From assembly GCA_951406725.2 (NCBI GenBank), contig OX597830.1, positions 8,060,001-8,124,000 of the forward strand: DNA of 64,000 nucleotides. The letters run 5' to 3'. This stretch comes from Octopus vulgaris. Lineage: Eukaryota. Made by a program: the position numbers and the translations under genes. Under the pieces are notes generated by a model. It did not search any database. It was not told where the DNA came from and worked only from the letters and a program-made list of their open reading frames with translations. Positions 7,217-60,092 of this stretch are shown here, one piece after another; position 1 is the first letter of the stretch; every line of letters starts with the position of its first letter.

Positions 7217-7664
7217 ATTAATATATATATATAGATATATTTATATTTATATTTATATTTAGCCATGTATGTAGGTGTATACGTATATAGGTATTCATAA
7301 ATGGATGTGTGTACGTTTTTATAACTGTATATATGTAGGTGTGTGTCTTTCTGTATGTGCTTCAGTTTGAAGGCCTGTTTGTATATGTGTACTGCTCAGT
7401 AAATTGTGAGCATAAATGACGTTCTAGGAGGATAGCGACGTCTACACACAGACACACACATAGATAAATACATTCATTCTTATCTCTTTGTGTGTGTGTG
7501 TGTGTGTGTGTGTATAATGTATATATATATATATATCATGTGTGTGTGTGTGTGTATGTGTGCCAATGCGTGTGTATTTATGTATGTTTTATATATATAT
7601 CTCAGTATATATATGTGTATGTATGTGTATGCATATGCATATATATACATATGTATAAATAAAG

Positions 7665-32186: not shown

Positions 32187-32247
<61 letters not shown>

Positions 32248-32250
<3 letters not shown>

Positions 32251-32645
32251 GATAAATATCAAAGTGAGTTATATACAGTAGCGGTAACACATCGTGACGT
32301 ATTTTTGCCATTTTAATATGGCTAACCCCTAAGGGTGGATGCTACTGTAGTTTTTAGCCCCAGGAGGACACACTCCTCCAGCTGGCCATAGACACACTAT
32401 CTGTGTCCTGTCAGTATTTGCAAAGGGAAGTCATCCTTCCCGTCTTCAACTTATGATACACACGGACTCGAGTTTCGAGGTATTGACCTCTCGTCAGCGT
32501 GTGACAATCATAGTTGTCGGCGAGAATTAGATTTCCTTCACAAATACTTATACTTTTTCCAGCGTCCACTGTCGCTGATAATGAAAAAGTGAAATCAAAC
32601 AATGATAAATATCAAAGTGAGTTATATACAGTAGCGGTAACACTA

Positions 32646-32650
<5 letters not shown>
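32248..32650 (-). mobile_element. Retrozyme-like non-coding element, 353-nt unit with a 43-bp terminal direct repeat
   Basis: 32248-32290 is identical to 32601-32643; canonical HHR inside; flanked by (TA)n on both sides. Confidence 0.85.
32459..32503 (-). ncRNA. Canonical minimal type I hammerhead ribozyme
   Basis: Minus strand CACACG-CTGACGA-GAGGT caat ACCTC-GAAA-CTCGAG-TC-CGTGTG. Perfect 6-bp stem I, 5-bp stem II, palindromic stem III ACTCGAGT, GUC triplet. Confidence 0.92.
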
Positions 32651-32681
<31 letters not shown>

Positions 32682-32796
32682 GTTGCATAAAAAGAACATC
32701 TATGTGAATGAGTGAGCCATTCTTTGATCGTATTTATCCTAGTAATATATGTGAAGGCAGTCAGGTGCATATATAATTTCTTTATTTGTGAATTCA

Positions 32797-32863
32797 TGCT
32801 ACCATTGGTTTCATGTCAAAAGAAGTAGGAAAATATCCTAGTATCTTAACAATTTTTCAAGCC
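32797..32863 (-). ncRNA. Hammerhead motif with U3-A8 core and long stem II (family B, copy 1)
   Basis: Minus strand GGC-TTGAAAA-attgttaaga..tcttttgacat-GAAA-CCAATGG-TA-GCA. Confidence 0.65.
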
Positions 32864-33584
32864 GATCATATGGAGAAAGGTGTTCGCTTCCATTTGGAGT
32901 GTAATGACAGTCTGATTTAACGAAGGACTTATTCAAAATGCACACCTGAAGAAGCACATTTTACACATTTGATGGAAGGTAGTGATTAATCACTATGTTA
33001 ATTATATCATCCCACCAATGTTCTGCGGGTTTGGCGATATTTGGAAACAATTGTAGTGGATGTGTAAGACTTATTATTCAGTTGACCATATAACTCGTCT
33101 TCAGGCTCTGCAGATTCAATTTTCTCGCTGGGAACGATAAGAAAATCACCAGAAGAATCGCCATTTTTATTAACATCTAGTGAAGCAATATCAGGTTCCT
33201 GTCCCAAAGACAGCTGCTGTATCGCTACATTCTACTAAGGAACATATGATTAAATTTTAGCCAACACTGCTTATCTGAACTGATATAAACACCTTGACTT
33301 TAAAGACAGATGAAACAAACACCAGAGACGTTTAGCCTCAAGCAGAAACTGCAGAAGATATTAAAAGCTCTTTTCTTCGTCGTAGCTAAAGCTGTCGTAA
33401 CTTTGGAAACACTTCCGTATCTTTTCTTGGCTAAATGTCTAGAGTTATATTCTGAGATTCAATATACTATTGAGCCATGCATTAATTAAAGTATCTATCC
33501 CGAATATATTATGTATACAAATTGGTCTATCTAATTAAATTAGTCTATCTGATTAAATTAAACCTCATTAATTATAGGTTTAAA

Positions 33585-33800: not shown

Positions 33801-34071
33801 CTGATGATGGATATATAAGCGGAATCGCTCTGAACTGTTACAGAAGATATTCGCTCCTTAATGACATCCCAATAAAGGACTGAAACCAGTCTTGCTAAGC
33901 CCTCTTTTTTTTAAGTTCACTAAGATATTGTATATGAAGACAAGATTTTATACATTGCGTGGTACAACATTGCAACACCTGATTAATAGTATCGCTTAGG
34001 TATTAAAAATGAATGAAATGAGTGTTCAACAACGCATTGGTGCATATATAATTTATTTATTTGTGAATTAA

Positions 34072-34138
34072 GGCTACCATTGGTTTCATGTTAAAAAGAG
34101 TAGGAAAATATCCTAGTATCATAACAATTTTTCAAACC
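34072..34138 (-). ncRNA. Hammerhead motif with U3-A8 core and long stem II (family B, copy 2)
   Basis: Minus strand GGT-TTGAAAA-...-GAAA-CCAATGG-TA-GCC. Confidence 0.65.
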
Positions 34139-34382
34139 GATCACATGGAGAAATGTGTTCGCCTCCATTTGGAAAAACATCTCGTTTCGTTCACGGGATT
34201 TCTCGTAAATTCACGTAAATGAAACAATGAATATATATATATATCGGTTTTGTAGAAACAGAAAAATAAATTAGTAAATGAGCGGTAATCGAGTGTGTTA
34301 AGTGATAAGGTACTAAAAGAGAATGATTCTCCGCAGACACAATAATGTATATATACATTCATACAATTGTTTTCCATACTTA

Positions 34383-34418
34383 CAGTTGAAAAAGTCTCAA
34401 TGAATGAAACCGGTATTG
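34383..34418 (+). ncRNA. Minimal hammerhead motif with U3-A8 core (family C, copy 1)
   Basis: CAG-TTGAAAA-AGTCtcaatGAAT-GAAA-CCGG-TA-TTG; homologous to 59862-59897. Confidence 0.6.
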
Positions 34419-34503
34419 AAATGTTTTTTATAAAATTATTTTAGCATTTTCTACCTTAGCTTTTTTCCATATATATAAATACCACACACACTACCACACA
34501 CAC

Positions 34504-40913: not shown

Positions 40914-40948
40914 GTTTCTGACGAAGAGCTCCGCTCGAAACGTTAAAT
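40914..40948 (+). ncRNA. Minimal type I hammerhead motif
   Basis: GTTT-CTGACGA-A-GAGC tcc GCTC-GAAA-CG-TT-AAAT; stem III reduced to the palindrome ACGT. Confidence 0.75.
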
Positions 40949-43555: not shown

Positions 43556-43806
43556 TTGTTGTTGTTGTTATTATTAAAGATAATAATAATAATAATAATA
43601 ATAGTCGAAGAGCGCGATTCGATTGTAATAGATATTTTATTGGTTGAGCGATATTTCAACAGTAAGTCTGTCTTTGTCGAGTTCAAAATAAGAAGTGATA
43701 AAAATTTAAAATTATAGAAATTGTACAATCTATCTCGTGTCGCAAGTTCGTATCGAACTACTTTGAAATTGTAGCCTTTAGACGGAATAAGAAGATAAGA
43801 GTATTA

Positions 43807-44310
43807 TTGACTTTTATTTCTGACTCCAAGAAAATGAACATTGGAGTATCTGCATGTTGTACCTTGAAAAACAGCCGCAAGAGAAGTAAGCCCTGTTCAT
43901 TGTGCAACAACATGAGTCAAGTGAATTCCATCAAGAATCATAACAGAAATGTTATGATTTATAAAGAAGGTGGGACATATAGCGTTTCCCATATGGTGTA
44001 CGCGGCAGAATGCACGAAACACGACTTGATTTGTGTTGGTTGCACAACAGAACAATTAAACAAAAGGTTTAATCGGCGCAGATTCGACGTCAGGCACAAT
44101 AAAAGTAGTTCGACAGAACTTGCCGAACATTTCGTTTCAAACGGCTGCAATTTTGAAAAAGACTTTTGAAAAGTGCATATTCTCAGAAGATATTCTGAAT
44201 CTGCTTCACTTTCACTTCTCAGAATGCATGAGGAGAAATATGTTTGCGGGTTATTAACATCACGCCCTGGAGGAATAAATAAAATGACAGAAGAATATCA
44301 TCAAAACTGT
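43807..44310 (+). pseudogene. Penelope-like element GIY-YIG endonuclease fragment
   Basis: PCSLC..MVYAAECTKHDLICVGCTTEQLNKRFNRRR..ELAEHF..HEEKYVCGLLTSRPGGIN follows the PLE pattern VY..C..YVG.T...L..R...AEHF...E...L.T..P.GLN; frame broken near 44169. Confidence 0.82.
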
Positions 44311-52431: not shown

Positions 52432-53410
52432 TAATAATAACAATAATGTTTGAATAGCTTGTAGATTCGAGGGTAGAACGACCTGCCTATTGCGTATCAA
52501 ACTTCCACCCTCCTCAAACTAAGAAAAACCGCCATAATAGTATATCGCTCACACACAGCTCCTTTCTCCTTAACGTCAAATCAAATATCGCAAACCTTGT
52601 CTCCTCTTAATGGATGAACAGGTCCCAATGATGCAGCATACAGAATGGGTTTCAATAGGCGAAGTCTTAAATTAAACTACAGTTGTACCACAAGCATGAC
52701 AATATAATGTCACACGTTCTTCATTTCATCAGAAAAAACTGAGGCTCCCGTGTTCATGGATAAGTACAAACATATACCCACTAAATATGTTTTTTAATGC
52801 AACAGGCTTAATTCATGAGGCAAAGATTACCGCTACAAGACCAAACCACGAGACGGTACGTAAGCATTACATAAGCATGACTAAAAGAAGTTTAAGTATA
52901 ATTTACAAGCATAAGTTTCATTTAGTTACATCGAAAAGATTATTGTAGCAAAATCCAGCTCGATCTAAATATGAATAAACTCTAGCTACAACCTCAGATG
53001 GAAGATTATTGAAAGAATCAAACACATGCTGGAACAAAAATATCAAATATTTATTCAATAGAGAAAAGTTAATACTAAAAAAAACCCGCTAAACGATTAT
53101 TCCTGTTTCAACATAGATCAGAGTCTTTCGGGATATGTATACACTATGAGAAGTATTTATAACGTAAATAGCTCATACCATCTTTACGTGGCTAGCTTCG
53201 CGCAATGAAAATTATATTTATGCTCACATGTGAGCTAGAATATATGTATATGCCTTATTTCTCAGTTCTATAATCTAATTGCTTTGACTATTTAAGTGAT
53301 TGCAAAGTGATTAAAGGTGAGATTTAAAATCCCAGTCTATTCAATATAATCAATAAATTTTAATCTCATCATCAGTAAATGCATTGTTGTTTTCTACAAT
53401 ACCAAATCAC

Positions 53411-53495
<85 letters not shown>

Positions 53496-53567
53496 TAAAT
53501 GTCAAACGCTGAAATGAGTGATCAACAACGCATTGGTGGATATATAATTTCTTTATTTGTGAACTAA

Positions 53568-53633
53568 GGCTACCATTGGTTTCATGTTAAGAGAAGTAGG
53601 AAAATATCCTAGTCTCTTAACAATTTTCAAGCC
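53568..53633 (-). ncRNA. Hammerhead motif with U3-A8 core and long stem II (family B, copy 3, best preserved)
   Basis: Minus strand GGC-TTGAAAA-tTGTTAAGAGAc TAGGA tattt TCCTA ctTCTCTTAACAt-GAAA-CCAATGG-TA-GCC. Confidence 0.75.
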
Positions 53634-53711
53634 GATCACATGGAGAAAGGTGTTCGCTCCCTTTTGGAAAACAGTCTCCAAAAGCCTATTTTTCCAAAAT
53701 GGAGGCGAACA

Positions 53712-54162
53712 CCATCTGGCTATACGACACACGATTTGTGTCCTTATATTTTCGAACAGAGGAGGTTAGCACCCCCACATTAGGTTGGCAAATAATCGTT
53801 ACTTCAAAGTGCTGCTACTGAATATCTCTCGTTGAAAAATTTGGGAACAACAATATTTCTATTTATTCGATCAGTGACTGTGAGTCACTTAGGAAAATAT
53901 TTATATTTTCGAATGGGTGTTTAGTAGTGCCATCTCAACCAAAGAGTTATTCTGTGCGACGAAGAGGAATAACCCTGAAACCGCACGGTCCACAGATACT
54001 GCTTTGTGCTGTGTGAGGGTGCTAGCCTTCCCTGTTCGAAAATATAAGGACACAGATCGTGTATCGTATAGCTAGCTGGAGACGCTGTCTCCTGGGGCTA
54101 AACAACAGCAGCATTCACCCCAAATGGGACTGTCGCATTAGGTTGGCAAATAATCGTTACTT
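53712..54162 (+). mobile_element. Retrozyme-like element, 358-nt unit with a 27-bp direct repeat and an inverted 5' segment
   Basis: 53778-53804 equals 54136-54162; 53712-53779 is an inverted copy of 54012-54079; 54047-54162 is the diverged reverse complement of ~32295-32410. Confidence 0.82.
53951..53996 (+). ncRNA. Type I hammerhead motif (U4 deleted)
   Basis: TCTGTG-C-GACGA-AGAGGaataaCCCT-GAAA-CCGcaCGG-TC-CACAGA; perfect 6-bp stem I, GUC triplet. Confidence 0.75.
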
Positions 54163-59698: not shown

Positions 59699-59776
<78 letters not shown>

Positions 59777-59861
59777 AGGTTGAAAAGGAACACATGAGTT
59801 GATATATACGTGGAAAAAAGTCAAGGTAGAAAATGCTAAAATAATTTTATAAAAAACATTT

Positions 59862-59897
59862 CAGTACCGGTTTCAGCCATTCAGACTTTTTCAACTG
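59862..59897 (-). ncRNA. Minimal hammerhead motif with U3-A8 core (family C, copy 2)
   Basis: Minus strand CAG-TTGAAAA-AGTC tgaat GGCT-GAAA-CCGG-TA-CTG, with palindromic stem III ACCGGT; the host element has a 26-bp inverted repeat at 59816-59841/60067-60092. Confidence 0.72.
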
Positions 59898-60092
59898 TAA
59901 TTATAGAAAACAATTAAATTCTGGGAAAATTAAAAGAAAAGTTTTTTTAAAAGAATATTTGCAAAGTATTCAAATACAAGGGACATTTTCCTTGTTTCTG
60001 CCTGTTTCTGTCTCTCTTGTTTACTCTTGAGGGTTCGAGTACCGAAGTGTTTCTTTTTATAAAAATTTTTAGCATTTTCTACCTTGACTTTT

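What the first reader, a model, noticed from the sequence alone, without database searches (positions are those of the whole stretch)
32248..32650. ~355-nt retrozyme-like family: canonical hammerhead inside a unit bounded by a direct repeat
Seen: a non-coding 353-nt unit plus a 43-bp terminal repeat, inserted in (TA)n, carrying a flawless minimal type I HHR (32459-32503, minus). A strongly diverged relative at 53712-54162 keeps the unit length (358 nt), the module order and an HHR with different stems, but its direct repeat starts at a different point of the unit (circular permutation). Established: animal non-LTR retrozymes are small HHR-containing repeats expressed as circular RNAs and linked to Penelope-like elements. 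Inference: both copies are cDNAs of a self-cleaving ~355-nt circular RNA read slightly more than once around. I do not know of a description of this family.
Basis: partly seen in the sequence, partly recalled or inferred. Interest (0 to 1): 0.88.

Follow-up and report, generated by a model that had tools for sequence, protein, structure and literature searches.

The report
Octopus hammerhead repeat with Penelope-type ends
A young family of 353-base repeats in what is likely an octopus genome carries a predicted self-cutting RNA motif and lands in TA microsatellites, mostly as two mirror-image arms that begin at two fixed points and share the same rare letters, so each insertion was likely copied round and round from one small RNA circle by a Penelope-type enzyme, a route proposed for animal retrozymes but not found demonstrated in the papers searched.

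Summary
The 353-nt unit, 43-bp repeat and type I hammerhead are real; the hammerhead is canonical, not minimal. The relative at 53.7-54.2 kb is real, but its ribozyme core is broken in this copy. The unit is a young dispersed family (439 exact ribozyme copies) of a non-coding, non-autonomous Penelope-like element (non-LTR retrozyme), likely in an octopus. Breakpoints are not freely permuted: 124 of 134 RNA-3' ends fall at two fixed sites about 46 nt apart, and 43 of 43 classifiable two-armed insertions have one of each, the known Penelope 'tail'. That explains why the two window copies start differently. Arms run up to 6 units. Both arms carry the same alleles (245 of 245), and rare alleles recur in every turn (9 cases, versus 0 of the pattern a mixed linear template predicts). 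Arms almost never stop at the ribozyme cut. The best reading is rolling-circle reverse transcription of one RNA circle by a two-start Penelope enzyme. No circle, cleavage or partner element was shown; a few arrays are mosaic. Verdict: a new member of a known kind, whose insertions give an unusually clean genomic test of a proposed mechanism.

The parts
32189..32248 (.). (TA)n target, left flank
32248..32643 (-). Long arm of the family-A insertion, 1.12 units; RNA sense is the minus strand; its 3' end (32248) is the tail start site T (unit position 311, counting 32291 as 1)
32291..32643 (-). One full 353-nt non-coding unit; folds far better than shuffles (z = -7.0 for 32249-32643)
32291..32294 (-). 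Start site P (unit 1-4): commonest 3' end of the family, internal in this copy
32248..32293 (-). 'Tail', about 46 nt between sites P and T (second copy 32598-32643); accounts for most of the 43-bp direct repeat
32298..32411 (-). Multi-hairpin domain just upstream of P, the part best conserved between subfamilies; predicted enzyme-binding element (inference)
32459..32503 (-). Canonical type I hammerhead, palindromic helix III; predicted cut between 32465 and 32464
32643..32654 (+). Inverted stub (mirror of 32623-32634), read as an abortive second arm primed at the unit's own TATATA
   Evidence: sequence; interpretation inferred
32649..32678 (.). (TA)n target, right flank
53778..54162 (+). Family-B arm, 1.08 units of 358 nt; 3' end at site P (54162) abutting TA
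53951..53996 (+). Family-B hammerhead, core one letter short and helix III palindrome broken in this copy
53712..53779 (-). Inverted piece of the family-B unit (mirror of 54012-54079)

Best explanation
This is a non-coding 353-nt repeat family with a hammerhead motif whose copies sit mostly in (TA)n runs and end at two fixed sites, and it is likely a non-autonomous Penelope-like element (non-LTR retrozyme) copied by rolling-circle reverse transcription of a single small RNA circle. Steps: (1) inferred: tandem genomic copies are transcribed, the hammerhead cuts after GUC (probably as a dimer through the palindromic helix III) and a host ligase closes the 353-nt monomer; (2) inferred: a Penelope-type RT-endonuclease made by another element, probably as a dimer, binds the structured domain next to the tail and nicks both strands of (TA)n about 11-13 bp apart; (3) shown in the DNA: one arm starts at site P and the other at site T, 43-49 nt further 3' on the RNA, neither at the ribozyme cut; (4) shown: both arms and all turns carry one haplotype; inferred: both were copied from the same molecule, passing the sealed cut site repeatedly; (5) shown: arms stop at variable points and join head to head, mostly through 1-5 nt of overlap, or join the TA run directly (one-armed copies, mostly P).
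For: Non-autonomous: arms loop straight into the next unit up to 6.0 times; 87 of 142 arm segments exceed one unit (26 of the 85 loci were picked as best full-length hits, which inflates this); no shared ORF sequence continues from the arm ends. Fixed starts: 124 of 134 3' ends are P (73) or T (51); 43 of 43 classifiable two-armed insertions are P+T after removing one duplicate locus (6 more have one unclassifiable end); 11 further P+T and no PP or TT among clearly readable ends; family B 9 of 9 (my reading); an autonomous element of the same genome 10 of 11. This matches the two internal start sites bounding the tail shown in vitro for an anole element (PMC11167929). Target: TA run on both sides in 69 of 83; two copies outside TA runs show 11-13-bp duplications. 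One template: arm-versus-arm agreement 245 of 245 at 7 polymorphic sites, shuffled pairs disagree 24.5%; at 7,618 informative positions 9 rare alleles are in every turn of both arms and 0 are confined to the same turn of both arms; 9 all-turn alleles in 8 elements occur in no other sampled element. Read-through of the cut: 5 of 192 passes show any difference there against 636 of 8,605 background windows; genome-wide 998 hits just before the cut, 21 with a changed next letter, of which 3 truly stop. Ribozyme: helices covary across subfamilies, with different helix III palindromes and a U3-A8 core variant.
Against: No RNA evidence: circle, expression and cleavage untested. In vitro the anole enzyme used uncut linear RNA and needed no ribozyme cleavage (PMC11167929). 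Six rare alleles fit neither clean pattern; L151 position 195 reads C,G,C,C in one arm and C,G in the other, as a mixed multimer template would give; L002, L015 and L135 switch haplotype inside an arm. The 8.6-unit array L299 shares variants between non-adjacent units, suggesting DNA-level turnover. Homogeneous source arrays outside my sample could give the same pattern for one generation. No autonomous partner with sequence likeness was found. 8 of 9 Xenopus retrozyme dimers did not cleave in vitro (bioRxiv 2026.07.22.740005).
Confidence: 0.68

Rival explanations
1. Same non-autonomous Penelope-like element and same two start sites, but the template is an uncut linear multimeric transcript of a genomic array; the hammerhead is not needed for mobility.
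For: Uncut RNA is the main substrate in vitro (PMC11167929); L151 pattern and mosaic arrays; autonomous PLE-Z also has near-identical arms and tandem units (0.0% in 11 of 16 within-locus pairs) with no circle shown.
Against: 0 same-turn-only alleles against 9 all-turn alleles and 88 singletons; all-turn alleles private to 8 elements need repeated passage through a single unit; arrays would shorten each generation, yet the 5-6-unit arrays L130, L136, L139 have different haplotypes.
Confidence: 0.2
2. The template is the ribozyme-cut linear monomer and the enzyme jumps from its 5' end back to its 3' end to make multimers.
For: L259 has both arms ending exactly at the predicted cut and L267 one arm, so cut RNA appears to be used sometimes.
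Against: Only 3 such stops among about 1,000 passes, near the roughly 2 expected from a mean arm length of about 480 nt (my estimate); no scars at the cut (5 of 192).
Confidence: 0.05
3. Short insertions were amplified in place afterwards by unequal crossing-over or conversion (the model discussed in bioRxiv 2026.07.22.740005).
For: L299 shows shared variants among non-adjacent units; the preprint argues for local amplification.
Against: 16 of 27 all-copy rare alleles are shared between inverted arms; both arms exceed one unit in 14 of 36 simple P+T insertions; copies are 97-99% identical to the window unit, so young.
Confidence: 0.05
4. The copies are only 5'-truncated ends of an autonomous Penelope element, not a separate element (the verdict reached for a similar insert in another genome, e1-7908855).
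For: The insertion anatomy is that of ordinary Penelope-like elements (PMC8557442; PMC3846280).
Against: The unit loops on itself up to 6 times with no ORF; three Penelope families examined share no detectable sequence with it.
Confidence: 0.02

Closest known systems
Metazoan non-LTR retrozymes (Cervera and de la Pena 2020, PMC7229834; mussel 350-390-bp and axolotl 330/350-bp repeats)
   Same: Non-coding 170-400-nt unit, GC under 50%, canonical type I hammerhead in each unit, dimers to multimers, highly self-paired fold, co-existence with Penelope-like elements; rolling-circle copying by a PLE enzyme is proposed there as a hypothesis.
   Different: Circular RNA and cleavage were shown there and not here. 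In the sections read, insertion ends, inverted arms and microsatellite targets are not described (0 hits for 'inverted', 'microsatellite', 'cephalopod' in the main text; supplement unreadable).
Endonuclease-positive Penelope-like elements with inverted pseudo-LTR and tail (PMC3846280, PMC8557442); PAc in vitro (PMC11167929)
   Same: Partial tandems, adjacent inverted 5'-truncated copy, 30-40-bp tail often at one end only, (TA)n bias, two internal RT start sites, both strands cut and extended.
   Different: No ORF; tail 43-49 nt (about 60 in family B); canonical rather than minimal hammerhead. The in vitro work saw no difference in start site between strands and did not report pairing of the two sites per insertion; here pairing is strict.
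Animal retrozymes as non-autonomous PLE derivatives (Li, Clavereau, Pollet, bioRxiv 10.64898/2026.07.22.740005)
   Same: Same conclusion on origin; most families have at most seven units.
   Different: 35 mostly vertebrate genomes, no mollusc; evidence is co-occurrence and pLTR likeness, not insertion ends or haplotypes; favours local DNA amplification. Here no pLTR likeness to an autonomous element was found.

Membership tests
Non-LTR retrozyme | Small non-coding unit (about 150-450 bp, GC < 50%) in tandem copies | tested here: met
   353 nt, arrays to 6 units; no ORF with a start over 38 aa
Non-LTR retrozyme | Canonical type I hammerhead in each unit | tested here: met
   Rfam RF00163 E 2.6e-6; 439 exact copies; covariation across subfamilies
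Non-LTR retrozyme | No LTR, primer-binding site or polypurine tract; target duplications longer than 4 bp when visible | tested here: met
   The terminal repeat is only overlap of the looping unit; 11-13-bp duplications at L154 and L169; PBS and PPT judged by eye only
Non-LTR retrozyme | Self-cleavage of the RNA | not testable with these tools
   Indirect hint only: both arms of L259 end at the predicted cut
Non-LTR retrozyme | Expressed as linear and circular monomer RNA | not testable with these tools
   Only contigs of runs not on record as RNA were available
Penelope-like element (non-autonomous) | Partial tandem plus inverted 5'-truncated copy | tested here: met
   49 of 83 elements two-armed (duplicate removed)
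Penelope-like element (non-autonomous) | [quoted passage not shown] | tested here: met
   43 of 43 P+T
Penelope-like element (non-autonomous) | Sequence shared with the pLTR or 3' end of an autonomous partner | tested here: inconclusive
   None with three families examined; the genome's other PLE families were not sampled; one chimeric insertion with PLE-Z
Autonomous Penelope-like element | RT plus GIY-YIG ORF | tested here: not met
Minimal PLE hammerhead (min-HHR) | Almost no helix III, longer helix II, short helix I | tested here: not met
   Helix I 6 bp, helix II 4-5 bp, palindromic helix III

The most novel reading that the evidence does not exclude
Each two-armed insertion records one event in which a two-subunit Penelope enzyme sits on a single ribozyme-made 353-nt RNA circle, primes both ends of the target break at two fixed sites flanking the tail, and rolls both cDNAs around the same circle; the family would be direct genomic proof of rolling-circle retrotransposition of an animal circular RNA and of strict division of labour between the two start sites.
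Probability: 0.55. Interest if true: 0.75.

Novelty: new member of a known kind. Interest (0 to 1): 0.55.

Why it matters
How animal retrozymes move, and how Penelope elements build tandem-plus-inverted insertions with a one-sided tail, are stated open questions (PMC7229834 discussion; PMC8557442; bioRxiv 2026.07.22.740005). A young, short, slightly polymorphic family lets the template of each insertion be read from the DNA. It predicts P on one strand, T on the other and one molecule for both, and it supplies a 353-nt substrate, a (TA)n target and two intact candidate enzymes from the same genome for an in vitro test. The class itself is known, so the value lies in the test, not in a new kind of element.

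Tried and rejected
Whole-window Rfam and repeat scans were swamped by microsatellites. Free circular permutation: rejected. Start at the ribozyme cut: rejected. My first test for stops at the cut (3 of 142) was biased because 59 loci were found by the intact ribozyme; it was redone without that bias. Partner search: RVT_1 search listed 150 of 56,077 candidates and was not followed up; the old family of window 43702-44166 has another, minimal hammerhead and no likeness; young PLE-Y (13 copies) and PLE-Z (20 loci) share the TA target but no blastn likeness; window 52730-52945 has 3 weak relatives. Fixed spacing between sub-sites P1/P4 and T308/T311: not seen (19, 9, 8, 7). Expression: no RNA holder listed; contigs of four runs guessed to be RNA cover the unit but cannot show strand, ends, level or circles; a second laying on four other runs did not complete. 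The hammerhead alignment used poor coordinates and was not used. Rows dropped before counts: L141 (two fragments 3 kb apart), L097 (duplicate of L092; still inside the 50, 134, 142, 192, 245 and 27), and separate neighbouring fragments in L138, L140, L151, L121. Own-scan look-ups by sequence and by place were empty.

Full report
Observation. The window holds an exact 43-bp repeat at 32248 and 32601 (period 353) between TA runs, and an exact 27-bp repeat at 53778 and 54136 (period 358). The hammerhead at 32459-32503 (minus) matches Rfam RF00163 at E 2.6e-6; a strict descriptor finds it once in the window and never in 100 shuffles. By the definition in PMC4209133 (part 1 of 4 read) it is canonical, with a palindromic helix III that suggests dimer cleavage. 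The unit folds well (z -7.0). The second copy (family B) is colinear but on the other strand; its core is one letter short here and Rfam misses it. Across 29 family-B copies core position 4 is C in 19 and U in 9 (my count); a U4C variant is reported to be slow in vitro yet sufficient in a viroid (PMC3088659, one passage). The host is inferred to be an octopus: the nearest named protein to a Penelope fragment of this genome is from Octopus sinensis at 77%. Species and assembly were not determined.

Family. The genome (2.8 Gb) has 439 exact copies of the 33-nt ribozyme core, 998 of a neighbouring 21-mer that includes a sister subfamily about 90% identical, and 2,721 of a motif shared by at least four subfamilies. 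I mapped 85 family-A loci: all 59 on contigs C1-C3 with the exact core, plus 26 picked as best full-length hits. Copies are mostly 97-99% identical to the window unit, and 69 of 83 have TA runs on both sides. Two copies outside TA runs show 11-13-bp target duplications. Subfamilies keep the ribozyme while changing letters: different helix III palindromes, compensated helix I, and a U3-A8 core pair in subfamily C.

Ends. With 32291 as unit position 1, 124 of 134 RNA-3' ends lie at P (1-5; 73) or T (307-316; 51). Of 50 two-armed insertions 44 are P+T, none PP or TT, and 6 have one unclassifiable end; L097 duplicates L092, leaving 43 of 43; in the C1-C3 set alone it is 25 of 25 with the duplicate. 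One-armed copies are P in 26 of 34. Eleven more clearly readable two-armed copies are all P+T. Family B behaves alike, 9 of 9, with a tail of about 60 nt (my reading of the 30 loci), and its P site is homologous to that of A. An intact autonomous element of this genome, PLE-Z (RT and GIY-YIG hits), has ends 34 nt apart, one each in 10 of 11 two-armed loci; L232 is the exception. Arm junctions overlap by 1-5 nt in 32 of 50 cases. [quoted passage not shown] The window's A copy ends at T and its B copy at P, which is the whole of the 'circular permutation'.

Template. The two arms of an insertion agree at 245 of 245 comparisons over 7 polymorphic sites; shuffled arms disagree 24.5%. 27 rare alleles are present in every copy within their element, 16 of them in both arms. 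A mixed linear multimer would put a unit-specific variant into the same turn of both arms only; a monomer circle would put it into every turn. At 7,618 informative positions the count is 0 against 9, with 88 singletons and 6 mixed patterns. The ribozyme cut is crossed without scars (5 of 192, background 636 of 8,605). Because 59 loci were found through the intact ribozyme, I retested stops without that bias: of 998 hits just before the cut, 21 (19 loci) change at the next letter; 17 are point changes, 3 are true stops and 1 is unclear. In L259 both arms stop exactly at the cut, a hint that cleavage happens in vivo and that cut RNA is rarely the template.

Against. No circle, transcript or cleavage was shown. 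L151 (C,G,C,C in one arm, C,G in the other) fits a mixed multimer; L002, L015 and L135 switch haplotype within an arm; the 8.6-unit array L299 looks reshuffled in place. My sample is roughly a third of the loci with the exact core (estimate), so homogeneous source arrays could be unseen. The in vitro study found uncut RNA to be the main substrate and no difference in start site between strands. The partner is unidentified: three Penelope families share no detectable sequence with the unit. One insertion (L225) joins a PLE-Z T arm head to head with a family-A arm, but that arm has an atypical end, so it is a lead only.

Known and new. Non-LTR retrozymes of 350-390 bp are expressed as circles in a mussel, and copying of circles into tandem cDNA by a Penelope enzyme is proposed there as a hypothesis (PMC7229834: abstract, Results parts 1-2 of 3, Discussion; supplement unreadable). 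A 2026 preprint derives animal retrozymes from Penelope pLTRs in 35 mostly vertebrate genomes and says the mechanism remains open (parts 1-3 of 5; supplements closed). Eight paper searches (listings) found no cephalopod retrozyme and no per-insertion pairing or haplotype test. An octopus repeat annotation has no 'ribozyme' in its text or its one supplement (PMC13282606, passages), and a mollusc SINE paper adds nothing (PMC4758252, passages). Repbase, Dfam, published repeat libraries and subscription papers were not searchable, so the family may be catalogued under another label. Clade names for the autonomous elements were not tested; 'Neptune-like' in my notes is recalled.

Verdict. New member of a known kind. 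Non-autonomous Penelope-type mobility with two fixed starts is close to certain (about 0.9); a circular monomer as the usual template is likely (about 0.68). Interest 0.55, for making a stated open mechanism testable.

Noticed in passing
L225:3022-5599 (G000:C17:47708500-47715500): Chimeric head-to-head insertion: a 5'-truncated PLE-Z arm ending at its tail site joined to a family-A arm with an atypical 3' end (unit 258). Possible sign that PLE-Z can copy the small RNA.
   Followed up: partly
L229-L248: PLE-Z: young autonomous element, 4,386-nt unit, 446-aa and 784-aa frames, many near-identical copies, (TA)n target, ends at 800 and 834; arms within an insertion differ 0.0% in most loci even where the locus is about 8% from the reference.
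   Followed up: partly
L215-L224, L226-L228: PLE-Y: second young intact element (about 4.48-kb unit, 96-99% identity), one fixed 3' end followed by a TA run in 12 of 13 copies, minimal hammerhead; its 3' ends often sit near family-A copies.
   Followed up: partly
L259:1348-1772: Both arms end exactly at the predicted ribozyme cut, with short templated filler between them.
   Followed up: yes
L253-L273: All 17 point changes at the cleavage letter give A or U in the RNA, none G; some are shared alleles, so not independent.
   Followed up: no
L175-L203: Further subfamilies: C with a U3-A8 core pair, and D, whose ends by eye are mostly not in TA runs and may use another target.
   Followed up: no
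window 32284-32294: The P sub-sites (1/3 and 4) fit one annealing register of (TA)n on the RNA letters AUGUGU with G-T wobbles, the nick falling after T or after A (inference from sequence).
   Followed up: no
L092 and L097 (C1, about 1.04 Mb apart): The same insertion twice in inverted orientation: segmental duplication or assembly artefact.
   Followed up: no
L299:3473-6547: 8.6-unit array of the sister subfamily, not in a TA run, with variants shared among non-adjacent units.
   Followed up: partly
window 40914-40948 (+): Minimal hammerhead motif of Penelope type (core at 40918).
   Followed up: no
window 43702-44295 (+): GIY-YIG fragment of an old abundant Penelope family whose copies carry a U3-A8 minimal hammerhead.
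   Followed up: partly
window 32764-32898, 34014-34176, 53510-53711: Another short repeat, beside both retrozyme copies; the third copy has its own short inverted arm.
   Followed up: no
window 59771-60039 and 34380-34479: Old 3'-end fragments related to PLE-Z (78-83% identity).
   Followed up: no
window 52700-52948 (+): Degenerate frame that by eye resembles a Penelope endonuclease; only 3 weak relatives in the genome.
   Followed up: partly
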